From positions 89,758 to 153,757 of the forward strand of contig JBFLWK010000001.1 of the NCBI GenBank assembly GCA_040757695.1: a stretch of DNA of 64,000 nucleotides, read 5' to 3'. Every line of letters starts with the position of its first letter. Position 1 is the first letter of the stretch. The translations under genes and the position numbers were made by a program. The DNA comes from Elusimicrobiota bacterium. Lineage in GTDB: Bacteria; Elusimicrobiota; UBA8919. Of this stretch, positions 8,037 through 60,817 are shown in pieces. The notes under the pieces are model-generated. The model was not told where the DNA came from. It saw only the letters and a program-made list of their open reading frames with translations, and did no database searches.

Positions 8037-8066
8037 CAAAAATGTAAGCATTTGCTTACATTTTTA
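8037..8066. repeat. Perfect palindrome AATGTAAGCATTTGCTTACATT (copy 1 of 3), immediately downstream of the dapF stop
   Basis: Identical 22-mer at ~8041-8062, ~8869-8890 and ~31695-31716; flanked here by A/T runs. Confidence 0.8.
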
Positions 8067-8865: not shown

Positions 8866-8890
8866 AAAAATGTAAGCATTTGCTTACATT
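8866..8890. repeat. Palindrome AATGTAAGCATTTGCTTACATT (copy 2) in the lysA–dapF junction, overlapping the lysA stop
   Basis: Exact match to copies 1 and 3. On the transcribed strand the hairpin is followed by TTTTTAGACG, so it could act as an attenuator/terminator or an operator. Confidence 0.8.
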
Positions 8891-16276: not shown

Positions 16277-16582
16277 TTACCTATACACTTCTTTGCGATG
16301 CTTAATTCTGTAAACAAATATACTCTTGGCAGTATCATCAATTCTGTAACAGCATCTGTAATTGCCGAACCGTATCCGATAAGCATCTTGCTGAGATAAA
16401 AGTTTATTGCAACCCCGTGGTCTAGAATCAGATTTTAATACAAGTAAACCTGCTTTTATTTTGGCGAGCGTTTTTTTATCTTTTATGTCGTCTAAATCCC
16501 GTTGTGCTGAAGGCAGAAGTAATACTTTATACTCCTCTTTTTGCAAAATAATCCTCCAACGGTGTAGCAGCAGATTCTTCAA
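16277..16582 (-). CDS. Type II toxin, RelE/ParE family
   Basis: Small basic protein. C-terminal ...AYRIRFGNYRCCYRIDDTAKSIFVYRIKHRKEVY matches the RelE/ParE core. It overlaps the upstream small ORF; the exact start is uncertain. Confidence 0.65.
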   Translation of the reverse strand: MKNLLLHRWRIILQKEEYKVLLLPSAQRDLDDIKDKKTLAKIKAGLLVLKSDSRPRGCNKLLSQQDAYRIRFGNYRCCYRIDDTAKSIFVYRIKHRKEVYR

Positions 16583-25777: not shown

Positions 25778-27363
25778 CGTATCTCGTAAATTGTAAATTT
25801 TTCTACCGGTATTCTTGAGAATGAATACGGCAGTAGCCCATACATATTTAAGTGAAAACCTGCCTGTGCTAACGGACTCATCGTTTTGAATGGATTCTTC
25901 GTTAGTATATACTTTTGTTCAACAAGTTTTAATCTTTTAACAATCACAGGATGAATTTTCTGCGGAACTGGTAAAACAGGGCAGACAATCAAAGAACCAC
26001 TCGCATAATTCTTACTGTCTGATTCTACCGCATAAAATCCATTTCTTTCCATATAATACTGAAACCCAAGATGTCCTGTAAAATAGACACTTTTGTCAGC
26101 GTATCCTTTTTTGATATATTCTGAAATGTTTCTATATGAATTGGCTAAAATATAATCTGATTGTGCAATCAAAAACGATAAAATAAGCCCGATAATAACC
26201 GTGGTAATCAAAAATATTTTATGTTTTAGGCATATGTCTGAAATTTTTACAAAAAGCAAAATTACAGGCGGCAAAAGTGGTAACAGATACCTGACTGCGA
26301 TTATTGCTGAAACTGCTACAAAAAAAAATAGATACAAAAAAAACCAGCTCACCAGAAAAATTATTTCTTTTTGATAATCCCATTTTTTAAGCGAGCGAAT
26401 AAAAACAAAAAACAAAAGAATTGCTGACGAGCTAAAAAGTCCAAAAAGAAAATTTTGTAGTTTAGTGTATCCAAGTAAATCAAAAAAAAAGGTTCCTGTT
26501 GCAAAAACTACTAAAAAAAGCCAGACAGCACTTTTTTTTAACTGGTAACCTAACCATAATATACTCAATGGAAAAACAAAAGCACCACCAATATAAGTAA
26601 GTAGTGGGATTTCTTTTACAAGCCCAAAAGAGATACCAATACTGACTGATTTTTTCAGAATCTGGAGTTCGTTATAAACAAATTTGTTATGTAATGACCA
26701 TGCAACTAAAAAAAGAATCGGAATTATAAAAAAACCGATATTTTTTTTCAGGGTTTTATTCAGCAGAAACCAAACAAAAAGCAGTCCGAGATTTATTAAT
26801 GCTACAAATTTTATTAAAATTGTAAACCCGAGCAGGAGCCAGCCTAAATATTTTTCACGAATACAAAAATAAATTCCCCATACTGAAAATGTAATCAGCG
26901 GTACATCCAGCATTATATCGGTTGCATTTACAAAAAACGCAGGACTTGCTATCAAAAGAAGCGCAGAAAAAAGTGGATCTGTTTTCAACTTTCTCGCCAA
27001 AAAATACATACCCACAACGGAAAGTATCGCAAAACAAAGAAATGCCAAATGCAGTGCTTTTTCATTTTCGCCGAAAATTTTTATAACACCTGCCAGAAAA
27101 TACGATATAAGCGGAGGATTATTAGCAACATCCCATCCTGAATAATTTTTGTCAGCACAATTTATTGTGAAACTAAACGGTTTTGCTGGCTCCTTTAGAA
27201 TCTGCCTGGCAGTGTAAATATAAAATATAGCATCAGAAGAAATTGCTTTATTATAAAATGGGAATAAAAGCAAAAATGTTAAAAAGCAGAGAAATCTGAT
27301 TTCCGAACATTTGTTCGGTTTTGTATTTCCGAACATTTGTTCGGTTTTATTTGAAATGGTCAT
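25774..27363 (-). CDS. GT-C family glycosyltransferase, ArnT/PMT-like; start uncertain
   Basis: DAIFYIYTARQI...NPPLISYFLAG (KPPL-like motif), at least 11 TM helices. Its first ~20 codons contain two CGAACATTTGTTCG palindromes and overlap the thiL stop. Confidence 0.55.
   Translation of the reverse strand: MTISNKTEQMFGNTKPNKCSEIRFLCFLTFLLLFPFYNKAISSDAIFYIYTARQILKEPAKPFSFTINCADKNYSGWDVANNPPLISYFLAGVIKIFGENEKALHLAFLCFAILSVVGMYFLARKLKTDPLFSALLLIASPAFFVNATDIMLDVPLITFSVWGIYFCIREKYLGWLLLGFTILIKFVALINLGLLFVWFLLNKTLKKNIGFFIIPILFLVAWSLHNKFVYNELQILKKSVSIGISFGLVKEIPLLTYIGGAFVFPLSILWLGYQLKKSAVWLFLVVFATGTFFFDLLGYTKLQNFLFGLFSSSAILLFFVFIRSLKKWDYQKEIIFLVSWFFLYLFFFVAVSAIIAVRYLLPLLPPVILLFVKISDICLKHKIFLITTVIIGLILSFLIAQSDYILANSYRNISEYIKKGYADKSVYFTGHLGFQYYMERNGFYAVESDSKNYASGSLIVCPVLPVPQKIHPVIVKRLKLVEQKYILTKNPFKTMSPLAQAGFHLNMYGLLPYSFSRIPVEKFTIYEIR
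27303..27344. promoter_or_regulatory. Tandem pair of Cheo-box-like palindromes CCGAACATTTGTTCGG (CGAAC-N4-GTTCG), 26 nt apart, directly after the thiL stop and at the 5' end of the GT-C gene
   Basis: Read from the sequence: tttccgaacatttgttcggttttgtatttccgaacatttgttcggtttt. It matches the LexA/DinR operator consensus CGAACRNRYGTTCG of Firmicutes-type SOS boxes. Confidence 0.55.
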
Positions 27364-28321
27364 AGCCGTTATCCTGTAAACTAATTTTTTTATTATTAGA
27401 ATCCAGATAGATAATTTTTCTGTTTTTTGTTATTTTGCCGACCTCATAAAATCTTTTGCAAAAATATGATTTTTTAGACGGTGAAACTGTAAAGAGAAGT
27501 TCGTATTCTTCACCACCAAATAAGACAAAGTGTGAAGTGTGGAGTGTGAAGTGTGAAGTAAAAGCATTCAAAGACGTGGAAACAGGAATTTTATCTAAAT
27601 ATATTTCACAGCCAACTTTTGATTCCTGACAGATAAACCGAACCGACTTATCAAATCCGTCGGAAGAATCAATCATTGCTGTAGCGAACCCGCTTTTGGC
27701 AATAAAAAGCCCTTCTTTTACTTTGGGGTAAGGTCGCAGGTGCTTTTTTTTGAGTTCTTCGTAACCTTTAAATTTCTTTTGCAACAAATACAGCCCTGCA
27801 GCAGAATCACCAAAAGTGCCGGTAGTAAAAATTATATCGCCCGGTTTCGCACCACTTCTTAAAATACCAGCGCCATAATTCTGTTTTCCTATAAGTGTGA
27901 TTGAAATTATTATACAAGCAGGAGATTTTACTGTATCACCGCCAATAATATCAACATTGAACTCTGTGGCAAGTTTTTTGAGCCCTTTATAGAGTGCATC
28001 TATACCAGCAACTTTTACAGACGGCGGAAGTCCAACAGTCACAAGACAGTAAAGCGGCACTCCACCCATTGCGGCAATATCAGACAGGTTGACCGATAAC
28101 GCTTTATATCCAATATCAAAAAAACTGTAATACTTCTGGGAAAAATGGATATTTTCTACAAGAGTATCCGTTGTAAAAAGCAGGTTTTCGTTTTTGCTCT
28201 TTATAACAGCACAATCATCACCTATACTTACTATTACATTATCATTATGAGTGCCGCTTGATAGTTTTTTTTTTCTGATTTTTTCAATCAGGCCGAACTC
28301 ACCAAGTTGGGTTATTTTCAA
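27347..28321 (-). CDS. thiL: Thiamine-monophosphate kinase
   Basis: MKITQLGEFGLIEKI...SIGDDCAVIK...TTDTLVENIHF, the AIR-synthase-related ThiL N-terminus. Confidence 0.8.
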   Translation of the reverse strand: MKITQLGEFGLIEKIRKKKLSSGTHNDNVIVSIGDDCAVIKSKNENLLFTTDTLVENIHFSQKYYSFFDIGYKALSVNLSDIAAMGGVPLYCLVTVGLPPSVKVAGIDALYKGLKKLATEFNVDIIGGDTVKSPACIIISITLIGKQNYGAGILRSGAKPGDIIFTTGTFGDSAAGLYLLQKKFKGYEELKKKHLRPYPKVKEGLFIAKSGFATAMIDSSDGFDKSVRFICQESKVGCEIYLDKIPVSTSLNAFTSHFTLHTSHFVLFGGEEYELLFTVSPSKKSYFCKRFYEVGKITKNRKIIYLDSNNKKISLQDNGYDHFK

Positions 28322-31694: not shown

Positions 31695-31716
31695 AATGTA
31701 AGCATTTGCTTACATT
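31695..31716. repeat. Palindrome AATGTAAGCATTTGCTTACATT (copy 3), ~100 nt upstream of the acsD start
   Basis: Exact 22-mer identical to copies flanking dapF. Confidence 0.8.
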
Positions 31717-33866: not shown

Positions 33867-36539
33867 TTAATCGCCGAACAGTTTATCAAATATGTTTTTT
33901 TTCTTACCCTCCACATCACCCTTTTTTTTGGCTTCTTCCTGTTGTTTTACCTGCCATTCTAACAGTCGTTTTTTTAACATCTCGTTTTCTTTAAGTACTG
34001 TTTGATATTTAATCTGCCAGTTTGTTTCAGTCAACATTATTTGTTTTTTAAGTGATGCTGTTTGGCTTTCTAACTCCTCAATTTTCTTATTTAATATCTT
34101 TTTCTGTTCCTCTATTCCTTGCCGGACAAGTTTTTCTATTTCATTAGTTTTTTCTTGTAGTATCTGTTGTTTTTCTTGCTGTAGATTAAATATCTTTTCA
34201 TTCAGTGAGATTCGCTCATCATTCATTTTCTTGTGTAATATTTCCGTTTCGGTTTCAACCTGCGAGAGCCGGTTTAGAAGTTCCTGTTCTTTCTGTTTCG
34301 TTTTTTCAATATGTTTCTCGTTTTCTGCCTGTTGATTTATAAGCATTTGCTCAAATTTTTGCTTCTCAACATTCGCGGATTCTCGCAGTTTTATTATTTG
34401 CATTTGCTCTATCTGTAATTGTTCTTTAACCGTTTTGAGAAGTTGTTCGCGCTTTTCTATTTCAATTTGCCAATTAGCATCTTTCTGGATTATTACTGCT
34501 TCTAATTCATTCTGTTGTGTTACATCTTTTTCTACAACACTCTTTAATCTGTTTATTTCTGCTCTTAATTCATTTATTGTCTGCTTTTTTTCTTCAAACT
34601 CTTTTCGCCAGTGTTCGTCGTTTTGCTTGAACTCCTGTATAAGTGCTAATTTTTCTTTTTCATTATTATCTATTCTGTTTTTGAAACTATTTATTATTCG
34701 TTCCTTTTCCTCTTTCTCTATTTGATACTGTGTTGCTTTTTCTCGTTCAACCAAAATTATCCCGCCCAATTTGTTTAAATCCTCGTCGGTATGTTTTATT
34801 TCCTGTTGTAATTGTTTTATCTTCTGTTCAAAACTCTGCACGATGGTATCTTTTGATTGTAATTGCTCATTGAGCAGTTTTATTGTCAGGTCTTTTTTTT
34901 GCAACTCAGTTTGAAGTTGGAAGGTCTGCTGTAACATTTCTGTTTCTAATTTTTTTATTTCGTCTTCTTTAAGGTTAAGTTTGGCAACCAACTGACTATT
35001 ATTTTCAAGCATTTGATTTTTCAGAGTATAGATTTCTACCTCTTTATTTTCTACTGTTGTTTCTAACTCTTTTAATTGGTTTTCTAATGTTTTGAGCATC
35101 TGGTCTCGTTTCTGAAGTTCAATTTGTAACTGTGTATCTTTCTGTAATATCTCGGTTCCTAATTCACCTTTTTGTTTGATATTTTCTTCTATTGTCTTTT
35201 TTAGTTTACTGATTTCACTCCGTAACTCATCTATTGTTTGTTTTTTCTCTTCAAACCCTTTTCGCCAGCGTTCGTCGTTTTCCTTAAATTCCTGTAAAAG
35301 TGTCTGATTCTCTTGCCCTAATTCTACTATCCGTTTGCTTAAATTGCTTATTTCTTTCTCTTTCGCTTCATGCTCTACACACCATTGCGAAACCTTTTGC
35401 ACTAGTTCTAAATCTAACTCTGCCCGTTGTTGCTCTAATTTGTTCGTTTTTAACTGCCAATCTCTATCATGTTCTTCTAATGTTTTATTAAATGTCTCAC
35501 GCACTTCTTTTATCTGTTTTTTTAATGTTTCTATTTCCTGTTCTTTCTGTTGAACCGTCCCTTGAAACTGGTCATTAATTACATCTTTTTCTCTATCATA
35601 TTTCTCACGCTCGGCTAAAATTATTGCACCTAATCTGTTCAAGTCGTTTTTCTCTCGGTTTAATTCTGTCTGTAATTGTTTTTCTTTTTCGTCAAAACCC
35701 TGTATAAGCGAGCTTTTCTCTTTTTCAAACTCTTTTTTTAACTGCGAACTCTCTATTTCAACCATTTGTAATTTGTCGTTCAGTAATTTTATTGTTTGCT
35801 CTTTTTTCTGCAACTCGGTTTGAAGTTGAAAATTCTGCTGTAACATTTCTGTTTCTAACACACTTTTTTCTTTTATTATAATACCGAGATTTTTATGTGT
35901 TTCGTTTAATTCTTTGCGTAGTTCATCAATTTCTTGCTGTCTGTTCTGCAGACCTTCCTGCCAGCGGTTCTCTTTTTGAACAAATTTATCTATCAGTGAG
36001 TCCTTCTCTTTATCAAAATTATCTTGTAACTCTTTTTCACGAGTTCTGATTTTCCCTAATGCTTCAACTCGGATTTCTTCCCGCTGTCTATCCAGTTTCC
36101 TAATTTCTTCTTCTTTTAGTTGAAATACATCCTGCCAGTGCTTGTTATTTTCAAAAATCTGGGTTTTGAGATTCTGGATTTCAATATCTTTATGTTTAAT
36201 TTTTGTCATTAACTCTGTGATTTCCTGTTTGTATGGTATTTCTATCTCTTTAACTTTTGTCTCTGCTTCTGCCAATTTTTGGGTTATTTGAATTTGTTGC
36301 GATTTAATTTTTTGTATTTCATCTGACCATTGTATCAGTTTGTCTTCTAATTCTTTAACTATATCTGACAGGATTCTTTTAATATTTGTTGCAACTGCAA
36401 AAGCACGAATATCAGTATCAGATTTCCCGGGTTTTGTTATTTTTTCTTCGGTATAACCAAAACCAGTTTTCATTTTGGTTTTTATTTCTAACAGCAAGGC
36501 GTCTATCTCGTCTTTATATTTTTCCATAATTATTTCCAA
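33867..36539 (-). CDS. 890-aa coiled-coil protein with ~100-aa internal repeats (Q/E/K-rich), inserted between acsC and the RACo gene
   Basis: Heptad-rich sequence throughout. Repeated blocks: ETEMLQQNFQLQTELQKKEQTIKLLNDKLQ / ETEMLQQTFQLQTELQKKDLTIKLLNEQLQ, and RWQEGLQNRQQEIDELRKEL / RWRKGFEEKKQTIDELRSEI / HWRKEFEEKKQTINELRAEI. No enzymatic motif. Confidence 0.6.
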   Translation of the reverse strand: MEIIMEKYKDEIDALLLEIKTKMKTGFGYTEEKITKPGKSDTDIRAFAVATNIKRILSDIVKELEDKLIQWSDEIQKIKSQQIQITQKLAEAETKVKEIEIPYKQEITELMTKIKHKDIEIQNLKTQIFENNKHWQDVFQLKEEEIRKLDRQREEIRVEALGKIRTREKELQDNFDKEKDSLIDKFVQKENRWQEGLQNRQQEIDELRKELNETHKNLGIIIKEKSVLETEMLQQNFQLQTELQKKEQTIKLLNDKLQMVEIESSQLKKEFEKEKSSLIQGFDEKEKQLQTELNREKNDLNRLGAIILAEREKYDREKDVINDQFQGTVQQKEQEIETLKKQIKEVRETFNKTLEEHDRDWQLKTNKLEQQRAELDLELVQKVSQWCVEHEAKEKEISNLSKRIVELGQENQTLLQEFKENDERWRKGFEEKKQTIDELRSEISKLKKTIEENIKQKGELGTEILQKDTQLQIELQKRDQMLKTLENQLKELETTVENKEVEIYTLKNQMLENNSQLVAKLNLKEDEIKKLETEMLQQTFQLQTELQKKDLTIKLLNEQLQSKDTIVQSFEQKIKQLQQEIKHTDEDLNKLGGIILVEREKATQYQIEKEEKERIINSFKNRIDNNEKEKLALIQEFKQNDEHWRKEFEEKKQTINELRAEINRLKSVVEKDVTQQNELEAVIIQKDANWQIEIEKREQLLKTVKEQLQIEQMQIIKLRESANVEKQKFEQMLINQQAENEKHIEKTKQKEQELLNRLSQVETETEILHKKMNDERISLNEKIFNLQQEKQQILQEKTNEIEKLVRQGIEEQKKILNKKIEELESQTASLKKQIMLTETNWQIKYQTVLKENEMLKKRLLEWQVKQQEEAKKKGDVEGKKKNIFDKLFGD

Positions 36540-37843
36540 ACAGTTTTCAGATATTTTGGAATACCTGACGCTTCCTTAGGCCCAACCAGAACCTGCCAGC
36601 CGGTAGTATCTTCCAATTTCCCGCTCATCACGGAGACATATCCGGGAATGATTATTTTTTTATGTGAGACCTTACTTGCAATTTCCGTTTTTTTCATCCA
36701 GGTATCAACTATTTCAGCATTAAACTTATCCGCAGCCCAAGCAGTTAAAACAGACATACCATCGGAATCACAGACCAGAAGCCACGCAGGCATTTTTGAG
36801 TTTTCTACTTCAGGCACGACGGTAAAAAATGTTAACGAAAAGTTTGTTGTAACTAAAAAAGGTGATTGAGCATCAGGTGTGCCAATGGTATAAAGTTTGG
36901 GCTCCATCATTATAGGTTTCTGCGGGTCAGTATAGATATTAAGCCGAAGTGTAATCAACGGCAGGATATCTTCAACTTTATCGGTTTCTACAACAAGTAT
37001 GTTCGCATATTTTGTAATATATGTTGACGCTTCAAATATATCTTTGGCAAATGCAAGGACAGGATAGCCAAGCGGTCTAAAATTCTTTTTTAGTGCCAGC
37101 CGTCTGATTTGTGTAAAATCCTGCACACATTTTGATAGTTCCCGAGAACCGCAATCAAGCACAATATCTTTAATACCTGATGAAGATGCCTTTTGAGAAA
37201 GTGAAACAAGTTTTTCAATATTTTCTCCATATACGCAAATCGGTACTTTATACTTTTTTGCCAATCCGAACATTTGTTCGGATTGCTTTTCAGTTGCACA
37301 ATAAATCAGTGGTTTTTTTTGAGAAATATTTTTCAGCACCTCATCTATTGCCGTCGGATTTTCACTAATAAGAATTAAAGGCAATTTTATTTTATCAGAA
37401 AGTTCTTTTGATATATCTGCGAATTTTGATATATCATTTGAAACATTTTTAACCGCAACAAGGTCTATGCTAACCAGCATTCCAACTCTTTCAAACTGAA
37501 GTTTTTTTATTTTTTCTATTTTAGTTGAAAGATTGGGCTCGTTATCGGCGACAGATACAGCAATCGCTGTTGGATGATAGAATGTTTTTTCATGACGGAA
37601 AAGCACTGTCTCGCCACCGATTTCTACTTTTTTTTCACCTTCGCCAATTGTGATTGTTGCCATTGGTGGAAGCGATGCGGACTCTAAAAGTTGTTTTGCC
37701 TGTTCAGTTACATCCGGACATTTATCCAGCGTAGTTTTTTTTCCAGCGAGTGCCATTGCAAATGCCAGACAGGTAGGGAATCCACATTTTTTACAATTTG
37801 TTTTTGGCAGATGTTTGTAAATATCAAGCCCTGAAAGCGCCAT
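36530..37843 (-). CDS. acsC: Corrinoid iron-sulfur protein large subunit (CODH/ACS gamma subunit)
   Basis: N-terminal [4Fe-4S] motif CKKCGFPTCLAFAMALAGKKTTLDKC; TIM-barrel and C-terminal B12-binding Rossmann region; 437 aa. Confidence 0.75.
   Translation of the reverse strand: MALSGLDIYKHLPKTNCKKCGFPTCLAFAMALAGKKTTLDKCPDVTEQAKQLLESASLPPMATITIGEGEKKVEIGGETVLFRHEKTFYHPTAIAVSVADNEPNLSTKIEKIKKLQFERVGMLVSIDLVAVKNVSNDISKFADISKELSDKIKLPLILISENPTAIDEVLKNISQKKPLIYCATEKQSEQMFGLAKKYKVPICVYGENIEKLVSLSQKASSSGIKDIVLDCGSRELSKCVQDFTQIRRLALKKNFRPLGYPVLAFAKDIFEASTYITKYANILVVETDKVEDILPLITLRLNIYTDPQKPIMMEPKLYTIGTPDAQSPFLVTTNFSLTFFTVVPEVENSKMPAWLLVCDSDGMSVLTAWAADKFNAEIVDTWMKKTEIASKVSHKKIIIPGYVSVMSGKLEDTTGWQVLVGPKEASGIPKYLKTVWK
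37263..37284. promoter_or_regulatory. Single 22-nt palindrome AATCCGAACATTTGTTCGGATT (Cheo-box-like core) inside acsC coding sequence
   Basis: Read from the sequence; it encodes ...SEQMFGL in frame. Confidence 0.4.
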
Positions 37844-43022: not shown

Positions 43023-43706
43023 TTACCTTACGATTTTGGTTTTTACATTACCAATAATAGAAACTGTTTCTTTGTCAACTGCAAGCACGATTTTGTCACC
43101 GGAGTACTCTGAAACACCATCGGCATCAGTTCTGACTATTTTTGGTGGACCGCCTAAAAGTAAAATTTCGTTTGTTTTATGGTCGTAAAATGCTTCCTTA
43201 CTGAATGCTTCTGTTTCCGATTGAGAAATTTTAACATTTTGGATTGCATGGAACCGGTCGCCGAACTCAAAAATCTCTAATTCTTCACATTTTAATTCAA
43301 TAACATCTGTTGTGTTCTGGCTTAATGTTCTTTTTACTTTTACATTCTTTTTCAAAATACCCTGTCCGTTATTTTTGTTATATTCTGCTTCATCACCCCA
43401 GGAATATGTAACGGATGTGCCACTGGAATAACAGATATAGATATTTCCGGTGCCTGAAATCACACTTGTTTTTTCGTTTGATTTCATTTTATCCGCAGAG
43501 ATTGTAAGGTTCTGCTGTGTAAATTTTACATTCCCAATAAATTCAAGAATCTCGCCTTTAGATAGTATCTTCATCTGGTCACCGGTGATTGTTGCCTGTT
43601 CACCAGCATAGAGGCAGTAAATAAGTGAATAAGTGAGTAAGTGAATAAGTGAAAGACACATAACCACATAACCACTTAACCACTCAACCACTTTATTTAT
43701 CTTCAT
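43023..43706 (-). CDS. LptA/OstA-like periplasmic LPS-transport protein
   Basis: Beta-jellyroll OstA-type repeats (ITGDQMKILSKGEILEFIGNVKFTQQNLTISADKM...); adjacent to lptC-like; signal peptide encoded by octamer repeats. Confidence 0.5.
   Translation of the reverse strand: MKINKVVEWLSGYVVMCLSLIHLLTYSLIYCLYAGEQATITGDQMKILSKGEILEFIGNVKFTQQNLTISADKMKSNEKTSVISGTGNIYICYSSGTSVTYSWGDEAEYNKNNGQGILKKNVKVKRTLSQNTTDVIELKCEELEIFEFGDRFHAIQNVKISQSETEAFSKEAFYDHKTNEILLLGGPPKIVRTDADGVSEYSGDKIVLAVDKETVSIIGNVKTKIVR
43621..43692. repeat. Two blocks of 8-nt tandem repeats (AAGTGAAT ×4; CATAACCA ×4) encoding the signal peptide of the LptA-like gene
   Basis: ataagtgaataagtgagtaagtgaataagtgaaagacacataaccacataaccacttaaccactcaaccac. 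Confidence 0.8.
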
Positions 43707-47236: not shown

Positions 47237-47980
47237 TCAAATTATTTCAATATATTTTTTTTCTACCCAGCCACGAACACCGAGTGATTTTACGCCTATC
47301 TCTAACCACTCGCCCCCCTCGCCTGATGTTCCTAACAGTATCACCTTTTTACCTTCCGGCACGGTAAAGTTAACCTTGAAATTAGTATCAGGTCCTGACC
47401 TAACCTCAGCGGTATTGATAACAACTGCTTCCTGCCGGGCTTGTTGACGGTATTTTATCAAATAGAGTGCTGAAAAGAAACCAAAAAATAAAACTGATAC
47501 AACAACCAGCCAAAACATTTTTTTAAACGGATAAACAAATTTTATAGAAATAACAACTACAAAACTAAACAACGAAATCGCAAATAATAATCTTAACCTG
47601 TTTATATTAAACCTTGAAATCAGTGATTGCTCGTAATCCGGGTCTTTTATCAGTTGTGCAATAAACTTTATGTTATAATTAACATCGTCATCCGCTGGCG
47701 AAATTTTTCTTGCTTTTTCATAATAGACCATTGCTAAACCAATTCTACCCAGTCGGAAATAGGTGTTGCCAAGATTATAAAAAAGGTTTGTAGACGGATA
47801 CGATTTTTCAATTATTAAAAACTGTTCAAGTGCTTTTTCATAGTTGCTCTTTTTGTAAAACTCGCAGCCGGTAGAAAAAATTTCAGTTTCTGAAACAGCA
47901 TAGAGGTGATTGCAGATTGCAGATTGCAGATTGCAGATTAAAAACAACAAAAAAATTTGTAATTTTTTCATATTTCCCAT
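47237..47980 (-). CDS. batE: BatE-like TPR + bacterial SH3 domain protein
   Basis: TPR units; C-terminal SH3b (VINTAEVRSGPDTNFKV...GEWLEI...RGWVEKKYIE); signal peptide encoded by (GATTGCA)n. Confidence 0.55.
   Translation of the reverse strand: MGNMKKLQIFLLFLICNLQSAICNHLYAVSETEIFSTGCEFYKKSNYEKALEQFLIIEKSYPSTNLFYNLGNTYFRLGRIGLAMVYYEKARKISPADDDVNYNIKFIAQLIKDPDYEQSLISRFNINRLRLLFAISLFSFVVVISIKFVYPFKKMFWLVVVSVLFFGFFSALYLIKYRQQARQEAVVINTAEVRSGPDTNFKVNFTVPEGKKVILLGTSGEGGEWLEIGVKSLGVRGWVEKKYIEII
47907..47940. repeat. 4.5× GATTGCA heptanucleotide repeat (coding strand CTGCAAT) encoding LQSAICNLQSAICN in the batE-like signal peptide
   Basis: tgattgcagattgcagattgcagattgcagatta. The same unit (aatctgc) is repeated at 7057-7093. 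Confidence 0.85.
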
Positions 47981-49812
47981 TCTTTTTCAATCTCGGAAAT
48001 AATACTTTTTATTTTTTTTATCTCGGTTGCCAAATTAACATTTTTGTCTACCGAGGGTGCAAATCTCATAAAATCAGCATTTTCAAGTAGTTCTCTAATT
48101 TTTTTTATAGCCGTTACAGCAAGATTTTTTTGTGCTAATACATTTTCAATCTCGCTAAAAGTAAAGCCTGACAGATTACTACTCGTTTTATCAGAAAGAT
48201 ATTCTACGACTGAATCAAATACAGTCCCGTAAAATTCTTTAACATCAATAGTATGTTTAATTTTATTTATGTTTTTTTCAAACTTTTTAAAAGCCTTTTT
48301 ACTTCTAATAAACTCGTAATTTTTAGAAACAAAAAATCTGTATCTGTTATATCCTAATCTACCAAAAAAAACCAACACCGAACAAACAAGCAATACATCT
48401 GCGATAATTTTTTCAGATTTCCAACTGATATTTTTGTCCAATTCAGTTTTTATAAACCTTATATCCTGACCGACAATATTGATACCGGAAGCAATCACAG
48501 GCAGGGTTGGGACTGCTGATATTTTAGACGGTAAAACTTTCAGATTAACTACTGGTGTTTTTAGTTTCTGGTATTCTTTTTTTTCAGGATTAAAATACGA
48601 AAAAACAACCTCCGGGATTATCAGATTACCAGCCCGGTCGGGAACGAGTACTGTCTTAAACACTTTAGAGCCGGTAACTTTATAGTTGGCTTTTGATATA
48701 TTAACTGACGAAATCGTATCATATTTTCTTACACCGATAATACTGGGAAATTGCGGCTCCGGAATTGATTTTATATTACCTTCACCTGAAATTGTAACAG
48801 TTAGCGTCACAGGATTGTTTGCTTCTATTTCTTTTTTGTCAACAGAAGCGCTGATATTATAAGCGCCTACAGCACCTGAAAAATCGGCTGGTTTATTTTC
48901 AGTCGGCAATGGTAGAACCTCAACAGATAGCGGTTTTGACTGAACAACGACAGATTTGCCACCACCAAAAAACCCTCTAAAAAAATCATCATCAAAAAAA
49001 CCGCTAAACGGGTCTCGTGTAAAATCCTGAACACTCGCTTTTAAGGACGCCGAGCCAAGCGCATATTTTCCGCTGGTAGTTGGGAACAATTTTGTTTTTA
49101 TCTCAATAACATTGTATCTTTTACCGTTAATAATTGTTTGATAATTTCGTTGTGGTGGTAAATCTTCAACAATAAAACCGGTGAAATTAGGCGGATTATA
49201 TTCCGGATTTGAAAACAGATTTCGTGAAGTAAAAAATCTGAATGTATAGGTTATTCCTTCATTAACAAAACATTTTCTTTTGTCCAATTCGGCTGTTACA
49301 AAAAGTCCTTGTGCTTTTTCATCATCAAGTTTGAATTGTTGAGTATCAACAGGTTTCTGCGATTGTCCGCTTAACACTTCAATATTTATTGGGTTAGTTG
49401 TATAATCTTTTCCACTGACGGTCAATTTTACAGGTCCGATTGCGAATTTCCCAGCACGATTCGGTGAGAGGATAAAATTATATGTTATAGATGCCGATAC
49501 TCTGCCATTAACAAACGAGATATTTTGTGAAGTGCCTGATGAATAAACATTAAAATCGGCTAACGGCGGAAGTTCAGGTTTAGGGATATTTGCAACATCG
49601 CCGGCGACGGTGACCTGCAGAGTAATTGATTCGCCGAAATTAACCGTGTTTCTGTCAACAGTTGCCTGGATATTTATATCCGCATAAAGGCAAGACAGAA
49701 GTAAGAAGCAAGAAGTAAGAAGTAAGAAGACAGAAGACAGATGAAAGATGACAGATGAAAGACTCTGACTTCTGACTTCTGACCTCTGATTTCTGACTTC
49801 TGATTTTTTCAT
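47968..49812 (-). CDS. batD: BatD-like oxygen-tolerance protein (signal peptide, large periplasmic region, C-terminal TM helix)
   Basis: Size and architecture, plus its position in the batA-E operon; N-terminus built from heptamer repeats. Confidence 0.6.
   Translation of the reverse strand: MKKSEVRNQRSEVRSQSLSSVIFHLSSVFLLLTSCFLLLSCLYADINIQATVDRNTVNFGESITLQVTVAGDVANIPKPELPPLADFNVYSSGTSQNISFVNGRVSASITYNFILSPNRAGKFAIGPVKLTVSGKDYTTNPINIEVLSGQSQKPVDTQQFKLDDEKAQGLFVTAELDKRKCFVNEGITYTFRFFTSRNLFSNPEYNPPNFTGFIVEDLPPQRNYQTIINGKRYNVIEIKTKLFPTTSGKYALGSASLKASVQDFTRDPFSGFFDDDFFRGFFGGGKSVVVQSKPLSVEVLPLPTENKPADFSGAVGAYNISASVDKKEIEANNPVTLTVTISGEGNIKSIPEPQFPSIIGVRKYDTISSVNISKANYKVTGSKVFKTVLVPDRAGNLIIPEVVFSYFNPEKKEYQKLKTPVVNLKVLPSKISAVPTLPVIASGINIVGQDIRFIKTELDKNISWKSEKIIADVLLVCSVLVFFGRLGYNRYRFFVSKNYEFIRSKKAFKKFEKNINKIKHTIDVKEFYGTVFDSVVEYLSDKTSSNLSGFTFSEIENVLAQKNLAVTAIKKIRELLENADFMRFAPSVDKNVNLATEIKKIKSIISEIEKEWEI
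49693..49810. repeat. ~118 nt of consecutive heptanucleotide repeat blocks (GAAGTAA/GAAGACA/GATGAAA/TCTGACT types) encoding the first ~40 residues of the BatD-like protein
   Basis: gaagtaagaagcaagaagtaagaagtaagaagacagaagacagatgaaagatgacagatgaaagactctgacttctgacttctgacctctgatttctgacttctg. The protein shows matching 7-aa periodicity (SEVRNQRSEVRSQS; LLLTSCFLLLSC). Confidence 0.8.
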
Positions 49813-57188: not shown

Positions 57189-58208
57189 TTATTTGAGGAA
57201 AGTCAACAAAGAATTGTATAAAAGCGGGAGCATAATTTCATGGTGACCGATAAAGTAAAAACCGCTATTCCCAGATGGACGGGATACGACATTTTCAAAA
57301 GCACGATACTGATAATTCATATCAAAATTGGCAGCGGTAAAATTTTTTACTTTATACCCAAGATTTCTTGCAAGATTAAGCGCCTTAAGAAAAACTTCAG
57401 GTAAAATTACTGCAGAACCGAAATTTAAAATAACACCACCTTCAAGTTTTGAGATAACTTCAGAAAATTTCAGAAAATCGGTGTATGATGTCTTGCCCCA
57501 AGAGGCACCATCGCATTCAGGATGCTGGTAAATTACATCCGTGCCTATCCCAATATGAACAGTTGCTGGAATTTTTAATTTATATGCGTTTGCAAAAATG
57601 CTGAACTCTGAAAATTTTAATTTTTTTTCAGAAACCATTTTTCCAATACTTTCGCCAAGCCCGAGATTTTTTTCGGCACCGCTTTTTACCGTTTCATTTA
57701 GAAACTTGCCCGTCTCAAAAGCCATACCAAATTTTCCAGTTTTTAATTGTTTAACAACATCTTCGGATGTTTTTCCACAAAAGGCAAGTTCAAAATCGTG
57801 AATAACCGAAGCACCATTTGTTGCAATTGCTGTAACAATTTTTCTTTTCATCATATCAATAACAATACAGGAAAGCCCACATTTTATTATATGTGCTCCA
57901 AACATAAAAATTACTGGTTTTCTGTTTTTTCTTGCTGTAAATATCCTTTTTACAAGTTCTCTAAAGTTTTTACCTGCTAAAATATCGGGCAGCAAATTAA
58001 AAAAATCGTTCTTGAACAATTGTCTAGTGCGAACATTTGTTCGCAGCGAACATTTGTTCGCCTTCGCAAACATATCTATCTGCACTTTGCTTTTTCTTTT
58101 CACCAATGGGTATCTTTTTACATTTCTAAGGTTTAACATTTTTGCCCTCCCAAAATATTTGGAACCACAGATTCCCGCCTGAGGCGGATCCGCCTTTGGC
58201 GGAAACAC
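57189..58208 (-). CDS. Hypothetical protein, tentatively deoxyhypusine-synthase-like fold. The true start is probably the internal Met (MFAKANK..., ~58073).
   Basis: Weak resemblance to the DHS NAD-binding core (IFMFGAHII...GLSCIVIDMM...VTAIATNGASVIHDFE; GGVILNFGSAV). The 5' region carries two GCGAACATTTGTTCGC palindromes. Confidence 0.3.
   Translation of the reverse strand: MFPPKADPPQAGICGSKYFGRAKMLNLRNVKRYPLVKRKSKVQIDMFAKANKCSLRTNVRTRQLFKNDFFNLLPDILAGKNFRELVKRIFTARKNRKPVIFMFGAHIIKCGLSCIVIDMMKRKIVTAIATNGASVIHDFELAFCGKTSEDVVKQLKTGKFGMAFETGKFLNETVKSGAEKNLGLGESIGKMVSEKKLKFSEFSIFANAYKLKIPATVHIGIGTDVIYQHPECDGASWGKTSYTDFLKFSEVISKLEGGVILNFGSAVILPEVFLKALNLARNLGYKVKNFTAANFDMNYQYRAFENVVSRPSGNSGFYFIGHHEIMLPLLYNSLLTFLK
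58029..58061. promoter_or_regulatory. Tandem pair of Cheo-box-like palindromes GCGAACATTTGTTCGC (17 nt apart) at the 5' end of the DHS-like gene
   Basis: tgcgaacatttgttcgcagcgaacatttgttcgcc. Same core as 27303-27344 and 37265-37282. Confidence 0.55.
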
Positions 58209-58311
58209 AGATTTTCATAGATAAAAATCTTTTTAACGAAGATACGAATAAAATCTAAATTCCGTGTTTCCGTGCTTTTGCGGTAATATATTCTGCGGCC
58301 ATCTGCGTCAT

Positions 58312-59145
58312 CTATCTGCGGTCATCTGCGTTACTTAATTCAGCAACGATAGAGCCGACACCGATTTGGGATTTCATTTTAATTGGTATATGGTTTTCAT
58401 CGTCTGTCATCCAAACGAGAAGTTTTCCTTTTTGCATAAAGATTCCGGCATCTTGTAAGTCTGGTTCAACTACAACTGTCTCATATTTTTTGCCGTTAAT
58501 TTTTATTATTTCTTTATTATGAATTTTAACAACCATTTTATAGTTTTTCTTGTTTGAGTTGACATTAAGTGTTAAACTATTTTTAGGTTCTAACTTCTGG
58601 AGTCGTACCCAGTAAAGTGCTGCCAGAATATCCAGCACATTTTCTGGAATACTAAATTTTTCACCTTTATGATTTACTGCAAAATGTTTATCCTGATGAT
58701 AGACAATTTTTCGGTTTCGTTTATATCTACCTTCTGAAATATGCTGTTCAAAAACCAGCGAATGAAATTTTTCAACATCAATATATGATTCGTTTGTATC
58801 ACGCACTTTATAGAAAACATCAAAAAACGGTGAGGACTTTGCAGCAGAATGAATATGGTATGCGTTTCTACCTTGTAAATCTACAATATCTTTGATTTGC
58901 AGTGTTCCATAGCCAACTTTTATAAACTGCCAGTAGACATCAAAAACCAGTTTTTCGCCGACGGGCAGTTCTGAGAAACATAGATTACACAGATAAAAAC
59001 CACAGATTACACAGAAAAAAATTTGCGTTAATCTGCGACTATGGATTCCCGATATAGACATTCGGGAATGACACTTTGTGTCATCTGCGTTAATCTGCGT
59101 TTCTAAGAATCCTTTTCGCAGCATCCAAAATGTCCTTTGCAACAT
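58312..59145 (-). CDS. DUF3108-like secreted protein. The start is probably downstream of the annotated Met; the 5' end overlaps (t)aatctgcg repeats.
   Basis: ELPVGEKLVFDVYWQFIKVGYGTLQIKD...VVVEPDLQDAGIF...LLVWMTDDENHIPIKMKSQIGVGSIVAEL pattern typical of DUF3108. Confidence 0.45.
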   Translation of the reverse strand: MLQRTFWMLRKGFLETQINADDTKCHSRMSISGIHSRRLTQIFFCVICGFYLCNLCFSELPVGEKLVFDVYWQFIKVGYGTLQIKDIVDLQGRNAYHIHSAAKSSPFFDVFYKVRDTNESYIDVEKFHSLVFEQHISEGRYKRNRKIVYHQDKHFAVNHKGEKFSIPENVLDILAALYWVRLQKLEPKNSLTLNVNSNKKNYKMVVKIHNKEIIKINGKKYETVVVEPDLQDAGIFMQKGKLLVWMTDDENHIPIKMKSQIGVGSIVAELSNADDRR

Positions 59146-60817
59146 AATCTGCTCCTTTCACCTCTTTAATATCACCTGTCAAAACAAAAACGGATTTAAC
59201 ACCTACATTTTTTGCTAAATCAATATCGGATTGCATATCACCGACAATATATGAATTTTTTAGAGATATATTGAACTCGTTTTTTGCTCTAAGAACCATA
59301 CCGGGCTTGGGCTTCCGACAAAAACATTTATCATCAGGATGATGCGGACAGACATAAATACTGTTTATTACAGCATTTTTCTCTTTTAAATTTTTTACAA
59401 TAATATTGTTTAGTTTCTCAACATCTTTTTTTGTAAAATACTTTCTTGCAACCCCTGACTGATTTGAGACAATTATTACTTTGAACCCGGCGTTATTCAA
59501 TAATTTTATCGCAGGTGCAGATTCTTCAAAAATTTTTAGTTTTGCTTCGTCGGTTGAATAATGCATATCTTCATTGATTGTCCCATCACGGTCAAGAAAA
59601 ACAGCACGGCTTCTGTAAAATGTTAACGCCATCAGAAACCACATTGTCATCTGTACTTCCGAATCACCATATGAATACTCACTTAACCCTGACAAAAAAA
59701 ATCCAAATATACCGAATATACAACCCAAAATAAAAAATTTCTCATCATTACTTACATTTCTTGCTTTTTTTATACTGTAATAAAAGAAAACTGCAACCAG
59801 CCACAAGAATGCAATCAGTCCAAGAACACCTCTTTCTGCCAGTAAATGGATAAAATTGCTATGTAGATGCGAGAGCATATAAAACTCTTTTGGCAATTTC
59901 AATTTTTCATAATACTCGGGATATATTTTTCTCGTGTTTTTCAAGCCGACGCCCAATACGGGATAATCTTTGAAAATTTTGATGCCCACTTTCCACATAT
60001 TGATACGAACAGGTTCGTTAAAATTAGTTGCCCGTTTTATGATATTCCGCCGACCAGAAATAAAAAATCCTGAAATTAATGCTATATACAAAGCCGCTAC
60101 AAGTATATAGATAACTCTCTTCAAATGCCCAAATTCAACAAAAAATATAATACAGCCAATAAACACCGTCGCAATCCAAACCATTCTTACATAACTAAAA
60201 ACAATACCTAAAAAAATAAGGACTGTTATTAAATAAAAAATCTTTTTTCTGTAATACAATATCGCATAGATTGAAACAGGTAGTGCCATTAAAAGTCCTT
60301 CAGCATATGTCTGAGGCCAGGAACGTGTCCCGTGTGCTCGCCCATCCATCATACTGAATATTTCTCTGGTAGGCAGATTTTTGTCTGTTAGGTATTGTAA
60401 CAAGCCAAGAAAACCCATAATTGCCGACGAAATCACAAAAACAAGTATGATTTTTTTAGCATGTGCAAAATCCTTCACATTAGACAGAATAAGAAAGAAC
60501 AAAAAAAACTCCATTTCCGAATTCAGTCCTTTTATACTTCTGAAAAAATTGATACCGAAAACAGCAGAAATTATTGTTATACTAAAAAACAGCAGGATAG
60601 AATATGTTACAGGTGAAGAAAAATCTTCAGATTTTTTCTGTATTATTTTTATCAGCCATACTAAAAACAAAAAAATCCAAACGATATTTGTAGCCGCGAT
60701 AGAAATAGGAAGCACGAATGCAAGAACAAAAAGTCCATAATACAAAATTATATCAATTTTTTTTAGCAATTTCATTCTCCAAGAATTTTTTGAACTCGTC
60801 TTTTTGATGTATCTCAA
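59090..60817 (-). CDS. Fusion: O-antigen ligase/WaaL-like (Wzy_C) polytopic membrane domain + C-terminal D,D-heptose-1,7-bisphosphate phosphatase (GmhB, HAD-IIIA)
   Basis: ~10-12 TM helices with a Wzy_C-type loop (HLHSNFIHLLAERG). C-terminal AVFLDRDGTIN (HAD motif I)...VIIVSNQSGVARKYF...CPHHPDDKCFCRKPKPGM (GmhB zinc-binding Cys motif)...VGDMQSDIDLA. Confidence 0.7.
   Translation of the reverse strand: MRYIKKTSSKNSWRMKLLKKIDIILYYGLFVLAFVLPISIAATNIVWIFLFLVWLIKIIQKKSEDFSSPVTYSILLFFSITIISAVFGINFFRSIKGLNSEMEFFLFFLILSNVKDFAHAKKIILVFVISSAIMGFLGLLQYLTDKNLPTREIFSMMDGRAHGTRSWPQTYAEGLLMALPVSIYAILYYRKKIFYLITVLIFLGIVFSYVRMVWIATVFIGCIIFFVEFGHLKRVIYILVAALYIALISGFFISGRRNIIKRATNFNEPVRINMWKVGIKIFKDYPVLGVGLKNTRKIYPEYYEKLKLPKEFYMLSHLHSNFIHLLAERGVLGLIAFLWLVAVFFYYSIKKARNVSNDEKFFILGCIFGIFGFFLSGLSEYSYGDSEVQMTMWFLMALTFYRSRAVFLDRDGTINEDMHYSTDEAKLKIFEESAPAIKLLNNAGFKVIIVSNQSGVARKYFTKKDVEKLNNIIVKNLKEKNAVINSIYVCPHHPDDKCFCRKPKPGMVLRAKNEFNISLKNSYIVGDMQSDIDLAKNVGVKSVFVLTGDIKEVKGADYVAKDILDAAKRILRNAD

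What the first reader, a model, noticed from the sequence alone, without database searches (positions are those of the whole stretch)
58029..58061. Second tandem pair of CGAACATTTGTTCG palindromes at the 5' end of a DHS-like gene in the LPS-core cluster
GCGAACATTTGTTCGC occurs twice, 17 nt centre to centre, in the same reading-frame register as the pair at 27303 (both encode ...NKCS...). The annotated ORF is probably over-extended and the boxes probably flank the true start (MFAKANK...). The putative regulated gene is itself enigmatic, with only a weak deoxyhypusine-synthase-like fold between heptose kinase and DUF3108 genes.
Basis: partly seen in the sequence, partly recalled or inferred. Interest (0 to 1): 0.55.

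Follow-up and report, generated by a model that had tools for sequence, protein, structure and literature searches.

The report
In-frame tandem LexA-type palindromes in gene
Two perfect copies of a 16-base palindrome matching the classic LexA (DNA-damage repressor) binding site lie inside the coding sequence of a cell-envelope gene as a recent in-frame insertion, and belong to a small family of such palindromes that has colonised genes in a few uncultured bacteria.

Summary
GCGAACATTTGTTCGC occurs twice, at 58029-58044 and 58046-58061, with a 17-nt period and 100% identity. The 14-nt core occurs five times in the window against about 0.85 loose matches expected by chance.

The gene is a 316-aa GSU2086-family protein with a DHS-like fold. 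It starts at ATG 58139 behind a GGGAGGG ribosome-binding site, and its first 25 residues are conserved in orthologues. The boxes therefore lie at codons 27-37, inside the translated region. They form a lineage-specific insertion of about 13 codons, absent from 119 listed relatives, in a loop predicted with low confidence. A third, decayed unit follows them.

The core equals the published Staphylococcus aureus LexA consensus. However, no SOS gene, promoter or lexA lies nearby. The same unit forms arrays with a 16-18-nt period, mostly inside ORFs, in other Elusimicrobiota MAGs and one Ignavibacteria MAG. The single box in acsC is exact in four genomes.

Best reading (confidence about 0.45): slippage-amplified, high-affinity sites for a LexA-type winged-helix protein, tolerated in frame. 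Any effect would come from a roadblock or from titrating the protein, not from a promoter operator. Whether the source genome encodes LexA could not be checked.

The parts
58047..58060 (-). Box 1, the 5'-proximal box on the gene strand: CGAACAAATGTTCG. It spans nt +80 to +93 of the CDS and is read as (A)NKCS.
58030..58043 (-). Box 2: CGAACAAATGTTCG. It spans nt +97 to +110 of the CDS and is read as RTNVR.
58029..58061 (.). Perfect tandem duplication of the 17-nt unit GCGAACATTTGTTCGCA (1.9 copies, 100% identity).
58013..58026 (-). Third, decayed unit TAGACAATTGTTCA (9/14 matches). It is in 17-nt register after the spacer 'cac'.
57189..58139 (-). GSU2086-family gene (316 aa, remote DHS/LOR-SDH fold). 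It hosts the insertion at codons 27-43.
58145..58151 (-). Ribosome-binding site GGGAGGG, 5 nt upstream of ATG 58139.
27304..27343 (-). Sister pair of boxes with a 26-nt period (100% duplication of 27299-27348). It lies at codons 7-20 of the GT39/PMT_2 glycosyltransferase gene, just after the thiL stop codon. An orthologous array with three boxes is present in Elusimicrobia CG06 (L014).
37267..37280 (-). Single box inside acsC (CFeSP large subunit) at codons 188-192. It is not an insertion. It is exact in three orthologous genes from other genomes. In the window it sits within a 24-nt perfect palindrome.

Best explanation
SHOWN:
- The feature is a perfect tandem duplication, with a 17-nt period, of a 16-bp palindrome.
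- Its 14-nt core is identical to the Firmicutes-type LexA consensus.
- It lies in frame at codons 27-37 of a conserved GSU2086-family gene in the LPS-core cluster.
- It is a lineage-specific insertion of about 13 codons in a variable loop predicted with low confidence.
- It is followed by a decayed third unit.
- It is one of five identical boxes in the window.

INFERRED:
- The boxes are high-affinity sites for a dimeric LexA-type winged-helix protein.
- A single box arose or was copied next to a native half-site-like ATGTTTGC. Slipped-strand duplication then amplified it, in a genome unusually rich in in-frame short tandem repeats.
- It persists because the encoded hydrophilic peptide is tolerated.
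- If the protein binds, two adjacent dimers (3-bp gap) would sit 80-110 nt inside the CDS. There they could only act as a transcription roadblock or as a sink that holds the protein, not as a promoter operator.
- SOS control of this gene is therefore possible but unproven, and is not the most economical reading.
For: Sequence and architecture:
- The core is an exact match to the published LexA consensus.
- Tandem sites 1-10 bp apart are a documented cooperative LexA architecture.
- In Actinomycetes loci found with the same search pattern, identical tandem pairs sit upstream of lexA itself (L012, L013) and of a DnaE-type polymerase (L004).

In-frame insertion:
- The N-terminus upstream of the boxes is conserved, and orthologues show a 12-14-aa gap at the box position.
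- Only 1 of 120 family members carries box peptides.
- pLDDT is below 50 exactly at residues 29-45, while the rest of the model is confident.

The constraint lies on the box rather than the spacer:
- Spacers and periods differ (16, 17, 18 and 26 nt) while the 14-mer stays exact.
- The acsC box is exact in four genomes that share 77-80% nt identity. Using this gene's own codon statistics, the chance that the E, Q and F codons are all identical is about 0.065.
- The GT39 boxes are retained between the window and CG06, in a region of 81% identity.

A LexA-type domain beside boxes:
- In the one box-bearing locus with an adjacent DNA-binding domain (L005), that domain is a LexA_DNA_bind wHTH fused to TyrA.

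Slippage-prone background:
- 17 arrays with a 7- or 8-nt period lie in the window, most of them in frame. Both box pairs are 100% tandem duplications.
Against: - No lexA gene or other LexA-domain protein was found in the window or in any Elusimicrobia locus. The rest of the source MAG could not be reached.
- None of the box-bearing genes is a DNA-damage gene.
- Positions range from codon 7 to codon 574 of ORFs, and some boxes are intergenic. This does not look like an operator set.
- Sites are all-or-none: five perfect and no near-consensus sites. That is atypical of a regulon.
- The boxes are always flanked by G/C and separated by GC-rich spacers, unlike bona fide LexA operators.
- The AA/TT centre is oriented AAAT on the sense strand in 11 of 13 loci. 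A symmetric dimer does not explain this.
- The pair at 58 kb is absent from all orthologues, so nothing shows selection on this particular pair.
Confidence: 0.45

Rival explanations
1. A selfish or neutral palindromic micro-repeat. A 16-18-nt hairpin-forming unit spreads by template switching or gene conversion, expands by slippage, and survives wherever the in-frame peptide is tolerated. No protein binds it, and the identity to the LexA box is incidental.
For: - Copies are identical and sites are all-or-none.
- Presence or absence varies between orthologues.
- Copy number varies at one locus: 2 boxes against 3.
- Decayed units lie next to perfect ones.
- Insertions sit in loops, linkers and tails of unrelated housekeeping enzymes: amidohydrolase, CobA, the amylase linker and the Lgt tail.
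- Flanks and spacers are rich in G and C.
- The same genomes are rich in in-frame heptamer arrays.
- No stop codon occurs in any of the six frames of the unit.
Against: - By my own calculation, an unrelated palindrome matches all 10 specified LexA positions with a chance of about 1 in 1000.
- The same core appears in two phyla while the spacers differ.
- The acsC box is not an insertion, yet it is exact in four genomes.
- No target-site duplication, transposase or RAYT was seen.
Confidence: 0.25
2. An mRNA hairpin element. Each box folds into a 6-7-bp stem with a C(AAAU)G loop in the transcript and affects translation, stability or processing.
For: - The predicted hairpins are strong: the pair gives -18 kcal/mol with z = -5.4, and the acsC site gives -15 kcal/mol.
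- The sense-strand orientation is biased, 11 of 13 loci.
- An unrelated terminator-like palindrome family (TGTAAGCAAATGCTTACA, three copies) shares the same loop and closing pair.
Against: - There is no Rfam match.
- Any perfect palindrome folds well by construction.
- An RNA function does not explain the identity to the LexA consensus, and no covariation exists within the 14-mer.
- The orientation bias can be explained by peptide tolerance: RTNVR/EQMF/NKCS against RTFVR/EHLF/NICS.
Confidence: 0.1
3. A contingency (phase-variation) switch. Gain or loss of one 17-nt unit shifts the reading frame and turns an LPS-core gene off or on.
For: - The unit length is not a multiple of three.
- The pair lies in the 5' coding region of a surface-structure gene. 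The second pair, in a GT39 glycosyltransferase, has a 26-nt period.
- The genome is full of 7- and 8-nt arrays at gene 5' ends.
Against: - Only two perfect copies are present, so slippage would be rare.
- The same unit sits in housekeeping genes such as acsC.
- No frame-shifted allele was seen.
- The array difference between the window and CG06 is in frame, at 60 nt.
Confidence: 0.07
4. The boxes are SOS operators flanking the true start codon (MFAKANK) of an over-extended ORF, making the gene DNA-damage inducible from its own promoter.
For: The core is a perfect LexA-type box in a tandem arrangement.
Against: - The 25 residues upstream of the boxes are conserved in orthologues, and the family profile starts at residue 2.
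- A strong RBS precedes ATG 58139.
- No promoter-like site is present.
- The boxes are absent from all orthologues.
Confidence: 0.03
5. Chromosome-organisation sites of the parS or Noc-binding-site kind. These would be perfect palindromes scattered inside genes that nucleate a ParB- or Noc-like protein.
For: - The palindromes are perfect, mostly intragenic, and spaced 10-20 kb apart.
- Two of the three loci are conserved between species.
- Some sites form small arrays.
Against: - The sequence is unrelated to the canonical parS, and the window shows no parS above chance.
- The match to the LexA consensus would have to be coincidence.
- Relatives carry one box or none per 14-18 kb locus.
Confidence: 0.05

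Closest known systems
Firmicutes/Actinobacteria-type LexA operator (SOS or Cheo box, CGAAC-N4-GTTCG), including tandem cooperative sites
   Same: The 14-mer is identical to the S. aureus consensus. The 3-bp gap lies within the reported 1-10-bp range for tandem sites. The same pattern search found identical pairs upstream of lexA and dnaE-type genes in Actinomycetes.
   Different: The boxes lie inside a CDS at +80 to +110, with no promoter, no SOS gene context and no conservation in orthologues. They have invariant G/C flanks and GC-rich spacers. Sites are all-or-none rather than a graded regulon. The pair arose as an in-frame insertion.
Rickettsia palindromic elements and other small repeats or MITEs fused in frame into protein genes (Ogata 2000; reviewed in PMC3184786; Coxiella MITEs in PMC5896051)
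   Same: A dispersed palindromic repeat inserted in frame into unrelated housekeeping genes at tolerated surface positions. It also extends protein termini (for the literature; for this case).
   Different: The unit is only 16-18 nt, against about 100-150 nt. It occurs as short direct arrays. It has no terminal inverted repeats, target duplication or recognisable parent IS. Its core equals a transcription-factor consensus.
REP/BIME/REPIN elements mobilised by RAYT transposases
   Same: Short GC-clamped hairpin-forming palindromes, often in pairs and highly uniform within a genome.
   Different: REPs are extragenic and about 35 nt long, and carry a conserved 5' tetranucleotide. REPIN pairs are inverted. 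No RAYT gene was seen here.
Simple-sequence contingency loci in LPS biosynthesis genes of Haemophilus, Neisseria and Campylobacter (from my own knowledge)
   Same: Tandem units whose length is not a multiple of three, placed in the 5' coding region of surface-glycan genes.
   Different: Only two copies are present. The unit is a 17-nt palindrome shared with non-surface genes. No length variants were observed.
HIP1 (GCGATCGC), the highly iterated palindrome of cyanobacteria (from my own knowledge)
   Same: A short palindrome found inside genes in all frames. It can arise by substitution within existing codons, as at acsC and at tyrA in L005.
   Different: HIP1 is 8 bp long and occurs thousands of times per genome. 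Here the unit is 14-16 bp and occurs about once per 13 kb, often as inserted arrays.

Membership tests
LexA operator (Firmicutes-type SOS box) | Matches the consensus CGAAC-N4-GTTCG | tested here: met
   Both boxes match 14/14. The sequence is identical to the published S. aureus consensus CGAACAAATGTTCG.
LexA operator (Firmicutes-type SOS box) | Lies in or overlaps the promoter or TSS of the regulated gene | tested here: not met
   The boxes are at +80 to +110 of a CDS whose start is fixed by orthologue conservation and the family profile. The scan found no sigma-70-like site in 57700-58500.
LexA operator (Firmicutes-type SOS box) | The genome encodes a LexA with a matching DNA-binding domain | not testable with these tools
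   No LexA was found in the 64-kb window or in any Elusimicrobia locus. The source contig is not retrievable. A LexA_DNA_bind domain does occur beside boxes in the Ignavibacteria locus L005.
LexA operator (Firmicutes-type SOS box) | Associated with DNA-damage genes (lexA, recA, uvr, translesion polymerases) | tested here: not met
   The boxed genes are the GSU2086-family gene, a GT39 glycosyltransferase and acsC. The window holds no SOS-type gene.
LexA operator (Firmicutes-type SOS box) | Site conserved at the orthologous position in related genomes | tested here: not met
   The pair is absent from L001-L003 and from the 119 other family members listed. The sister sites at GT39 and acsC are conserved.
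LexA operator (Firmicutes-type SOS box) | Tandem sites 1-10 bp apart for cooperative binding | tested here: met
   The gap between the 14-mers is 3 bp. The criterion comes from PMC4951493. Actual binding was not tested.
In-frame dispersed palindromic repeat (RPE- or MITE-like) | Several near-identical copies dispersed in the genome | tested here: met
   There are five exact copies at three loci in the window. Arrays occur at 5 loci of one Ignavibacteria MAG and at 3 loci in two other Elusimicrobia MAGs (2 in CG06, 1 in NC_groundwater_1671).
In-frame dispersed palindromic repeat (RPE- or MITE-like) | Insertion relative to orthologues, reading frame kept, tolerated position | tested here: met
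   Orthologues show a 12-14-aa gap at the box position. pLDDT is below 50 at residues 29-45. The same holds for GT39, CobA and the amidohydrolase. It does not hold for acsC.
In-frame dispersed palindromic repeat (RPE- or MITE-like) | Terminal inverted repeats with target-site duplication, or a parent IS or transposase | tested here: not met
   No target-site duplication is visible in the flanks. No transposase or RAYT domain is present in the window.
Intrinsic terminator | GC-rich hairpin followed by a U-run on the transcribed strand | tested here: not met
   The only terminator-like call at the pair is on the + strand, antisense to every gene in the window.
Known structured RNA (Rfam) | Match to a curated covariance model | tested here: not met
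   There are no matches at E <= 1 in 57500-58700.
parS centromere-like site | Match to TGTTNCACGTGAAACA | tested here: not met
   The box sequence is unrelated to parS. The window has only chance-level parS-like matches.
GSU2086 family (host gene) | Full-length match above the NCBIfam cut-off | tested here: met
   NF052581 scores 403.6 bits against a cut-off of 250, with profile positions 2-300 of 301 aligned.
Deoxyhypusine synthase (host gene) | Score above the Pfam or TIGRFAM thresholds | tested here: not met
   PF01916 scores 24 bits against 27. TIGR00321 scores 21.9 against 304. Only the fold is similar: TM 0.55-0.60 at 12-18% identity.

The most novel reading that the evidence does not exclude
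The 16-18-nt unit S-CGAACAAATGTTCG-S is a previously undescribed self-propagating micro-element. It is shared by Elusimicrobiota and an Ignavibacteria lineage. It seeds at half-site-like sequences, expands by slippage and colonises coding sequences in frame. Its uniformity is maintained because a LexA-type winged-helix protein recognises it. That protein could be the SOS repressor itself or a paralogue such as the TyrA-LexA-domain fusion in L005. Under this reading a global repressor's consensus site behaves as mobile DNA, and it rewires or buffers that repressor.
Probability: 0.2. Interest if true: 0.75.

Novelty: new variant of a known kind. Interest (0 to 1): 0.5.

Why it matters
Under the operator reading, an LPS-core gene and a lipid or glycan glycosyltransferase would be tied to a LexA-type regulator by intragenic roadblocks. 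That would be an unusual regulatory layout.

Under the broader reading, a transcription-factor consensus site would be shown to multiply and insert in frame into housekeeping genes in two phyla. That bears on three questions:
- how regulons gain sites;
- how repressor pools are buffered;
- how very short palindromes spread without a recognisable transposase.

Practically, the result corrects the gene model: start at 58139, 316 aa. It also warns that perfect SOS boxes in these MAGs should not be read as evidence of SOS regulation.

Tried and rejected
- **Retrieving the source contig.** The aim was to count boxes genome-wide and look for lexA. Exact-protein look-ups failed or returned only a 3.7-kb fragment.
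- **Searching for LexA.** I searched all fetched loci and the window with tblastn and an ad hoc HMM. Only the Actinomycetes lexA genes and the L005 fusion domain were found.
- **Literature on LexA in Elusimicrobia.** Nothing was found. The E. minutum genome paper is not held. The Bacteroidetes LexA paper does not mention these phyla.
- **Rfam.** The scan of the region gave no hit.
- **Promoter scan.** It found nothing at the 58-kb pair.
- **Viral contigs.** The scan for close tandem pairs found nothing.
- **parS.** Matches were at chance level.
- **Copies of the 172-nt upstream spacer elsewhere in the window.** None were found.
- **Decayed boxes in P0009 and P0010.** I considered that the insertions at the same linker position in these proteins might be decayed boxes. 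The best ungapped matches are only 9-10 of 14, which is not distinguishable from background.
- **An insertion at acsC.** This was rejected, because the alignment with solved CFeSP structures has no gap there.

Full report
**1. The observation**

On the + strand, GCGAACATTTGTTCGC lies at 58029-58044 and again at 58046-58061. TRF reports a 17-nt unit, 1.9 copies and 100% identity. The 14-nt core CGAACATTTGTTCG occurs exactly five times in the window: 27304, 27330, 37267, 58030 and 58047. With up to two mismatches, 0.85 matches are expected, and no shuffle reaches the observed number. These five are the only GAAC-N4-GTTC sites in 64 kb. There are no sites with one or two mismatches. Every gene in the window is on the minus strand, so the sense strand reads CGAACAAATGTTCG.

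**2. The gene and its start**

The 339-aa GTG ORF is only the mechanical ORF. A GGGAGGG ribosome-binding site lies 5 nt before ATG 58139. The resulting 316-aa protein is identical to an NCBI protein from an Elusimicrobiota MAG, on a 155-kb contig.

It is a full-length member of the NCBIfam GSU2086 family, scoring 403 bits with the profile aligned from position 2. Matches to deoxyhypusine synthase models fall below threshold. An AlphaFold model (pLDDT 82.5, pTM 0.85) matches DHS and LOR/SDH structures at TM 0.55-0.60 with 12-18% identity.

The neighbouring genes are DUF3108, a Wzy_C-HAD fusion and LpxK upstream, and the heptose-7-phosphate kinase, KdsB and MoxR downstream. The same order is seen in related loci.

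**3. The boxes lie inside the CDS as an insertion**

In an alignment of 23 orthologues, residues 1-25 (MLNLxNVKRYxLxKRKSKV..MF) are conserved, and R15, S17, K18 and V19 are invariant. The window protein then carries 12-14 extra residues, KANKCSLRTNVRTRQ, where the others have a short variable linker.

The DNA alignment with three orthologous loci shows the same gap. Those loci have no GAAC-N4-GTTC in the gene. Of the 120 family members listed, only the window's own protein contains box-encoded peptides.

The model has pLDDT below 50 exactly at residues 29-45. A third unit, TAGACAATTGTTCA (9/14), follows in the same 17-nt register.

No sigma-70-like promoter is found around the pair, and there is no Rfam match.

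**4. What the box is**

The sense-strand 14-mer is letter for letter the published S. aureus LexA consensus. Tandem LexA sites 1-10 bp apart are a documented cooperative arrangement.

A scan of one genome per species for two exact boxes 1-30 nt apart found 14 loci in 9 genomes. In Actinomycetes the pairs lie upstream of lexA itself (L012, L013) and of a DnaE-type polymerase (L004). These are ordinary SOS operators.

In contrast, the hits from Elusimicrobia and from one Ignavibacteria MAG are arrays with a 16-18-nt period:
- Elusimicrobia CG06: two loci.
- Elusimicrobia NC_groundwater_1671: one locus.
- Ignavibacteria MAG: five loci.

These arrays lie beside or inside housekeeping genes: lgt, GT39, an amylase, tyrA/aroA, pyk, a trxB-like gene, cobA and an amidohydrolase. 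A metagenome scan added two more such contigs, and a viral scan found none. Most arrays are translated in frame, for example SEQMFAPNKCSPRTNVR and SEQMFGSEQMFG. They appear as insertions relative to solved homologues.

**5. The sister sites in the window**

*The pair at 27.3 kb.* It is a 100% duplication of a 26-nt unit. It lies just after the thiL stop codon, at codons 7-20 of a GT39 glycosyltransferase. Most listed GT39 orthologues begin with a short MTILKxDFSKI-type N-terminus and none of them has box peptides. Only the window and a CG06-like protein carry them. The CG06 locus keeps exact boxes at the same place, but with three copies and 60 extra nucleotides in frame, in a region of 81% identity.

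*The single box in acsC.* It is not an insertion. It overlies a conserved E-Q-M. It is exact in three orthologous genes from other genomes at 77-80% nt identity. It forms the second-longest four-way identical run in the gene. From that gene's own codon statistics, the chance that the E, Q and F codons are all identical is about 0.065.

Together these results suggest a constraint on the DNA of the box itself. The statistics are modest.

**6. Features that do not fit a plain operator set**

- Sites are all-or-none.
- In the Elusimicrobia- and Ignavibacteria-type loci every box has a G or C on its 5' side and 34 of 35 have one on the 3' side, in DNA of 33-38% GC, and spacers are GC-rich. The bona fide LexA operators lack this.
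- The AA/TT centre reads AAAT on the sense strand in 11 of 13 independent loci. The two-sided binomial p is about 0.02 by my own calculation.
- Positions within ORFs range from codon 7 to codon 574.
- No lexA, transposase or RAYT is present in the window or in the Elusimicrobia loci.
- The source contig could not be retrieved, so whether the genome encodes LexA remains untested.

**7. Genomic background**

The window carries 17 perfect or near-perfect arrays with a 7- or 8-nt period, most of them in frame. Several encode the hydrophobic core of signal peptides, and one sits inside thiL. The orthologous thiL position in two other genomes carries a different heptamer, which indicates concerted evolution of an old array. 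Such arrays occur in the box-bearing Elusimicrobia and Ignavibacteria loci. They do not occur in the Actinomycetes- or Firmicutes-type loci, apart from one AT-only repeat (TTATATA) in a rumen contig (L030). A slippage-prone background therefore explains the tandem form of both pairs.

**8. Interpretation**

The anatomy is established. The feature is a lineage-specific, in-frame, slippage-amplified insertion of a perfect LexA-consensus palindrome, in a tolerated loop of a GSU2086-family protein.

The most likely reading of the unit is a high-affinity site for a LexA-type winged-helix dimer. The supporting points are the exact consensus, the constraint on the core but not on the spacers, and a LexA-type domain found beside boxes in L005. 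Given its position, the pair could act only as a roadblock or as a sink for the protein. Intragenic LexA sites with and without regulatory effect are known in M. tuberculosis.

The main rival is a neutral or selfish palindromic micro-repeat, comparable in behaviour to Rickettsia palindromic elements. mRNA hairpins, a frameshift switch and parS-like sites are less likely.

Confidence that this pair regulates the gene in response to DNA damage is low.

Noticed in passing
window 12225-12267, 13539-13581, 20439-20481; also 11194-11273, 43616-43693, 47908-47939, 49692-49803: Tandem arrays with a 7- or 8-nt unit (4-10 copies) encode the hydrophobic core of N-terminal signal or lipoprotein peptides. 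(TTTACCT)x6 gives the same FYLLPFTFYLLPFTC in three different genes: patatin, OEP/TolC and a TPR protein. Because the unit length is not a multiple of 3, a change in copy number would shift the reading frame.
   Followed up: partly
window 27528-27559; L014 5465-5495; L036 1-29: The same position inside thiL (aa 255-265) carries a heptamer array in three genomes, each with a different unit: CACACTT-, CTTCCGA- and CACTTAC-type. This looks like concerted evolution of an old in-frame microsatellite within an enzyme.
   Followed up: partly
window 8043-8060, 8871-8888, 31697-31714: A second exact palindrome family, TGTAAGCAAATGCTTACA, occurs three times. Each copy is flanked by A5/T5. Two copies lie right after the stop codons of dapF and lysA, and one lies between RACo and acsD. 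They look like terminators. They share the CAAATG centre and the orientation of the LexA-type boxes.
   Followed up: partly
L005 1640-2744 (Ignavibacteria MAG BA1A30.2019.Bin.46, JBGFRZ010000042.1): A prephenate dehydrogenase carries a C-terminal LexA_DNA_bind winged-helix domain (29.8 bits). One box lies inside the gene, and a pair with a 17-nt period lies between its stop codon and aroA. This is an enzyme-repressor-domain fusion next to LexA-type boxes.
   Followed up: partly
window 58140-58311: The 172-nt spacer upstream of the GSU2086-family gene holds two adjacent GC-rich hairpins (58175-58203), a long inverted repeat GGAAACAC(G/A)GA...TCTGTGTTTCC and CGCAGAT-type direct repeats (58292-58330). 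In L003 the DUF3108 and GSU2086-family genes overlap with no spacer. There is no Rfam match and no other copy in the window.
   Followed up: partly
window 33867-36539: An 890-aa ORF with no Pfam family (only faint coiled-coil-type hits) lies between acsC and the RACo activase inside the Wood-Ljungdahl cluster. In L032 the acsC and RACo genes are adjacent without it.
   Followed up: no
window 59090-60817: A single ORF fuses an O-antigen-ligase-type Wzy_C membrane domain with a C-terminal HAD phosphatase (GmhB-like) domain. The same fusion is present in L003, while L001 has the HAD domain alone.
   Followed up: no
L023 (metagenome contig JAEEGL013178262.1, 10.7 kb): There are eleven GAAC-N4-GTTC sites in 10.7 kb. 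They include a perfect pair interleaved with TTGACA-like hexamers, which may mark a LexA-controlled phage or mobile element.
   Followed up: no
window 16277-16582: A ParE-family toxin ORF lies upstream of and partly overlaps the 5' end of the argininosuccinate synthase ORF. No antitoxin partner was examined.
   Followed up: no
window 27180-27480 versus L014 5560-5900: The thiL-GT39 junction is 81% identical in DNA between the window and CG06, although the GT39 proteins are only 63% identical overall. A closer GT39 orthologue (71% identity, L036) lacks the boxes. This hints at recombination, or at repeated gain and loss, at the junction.
   Followed up: partly
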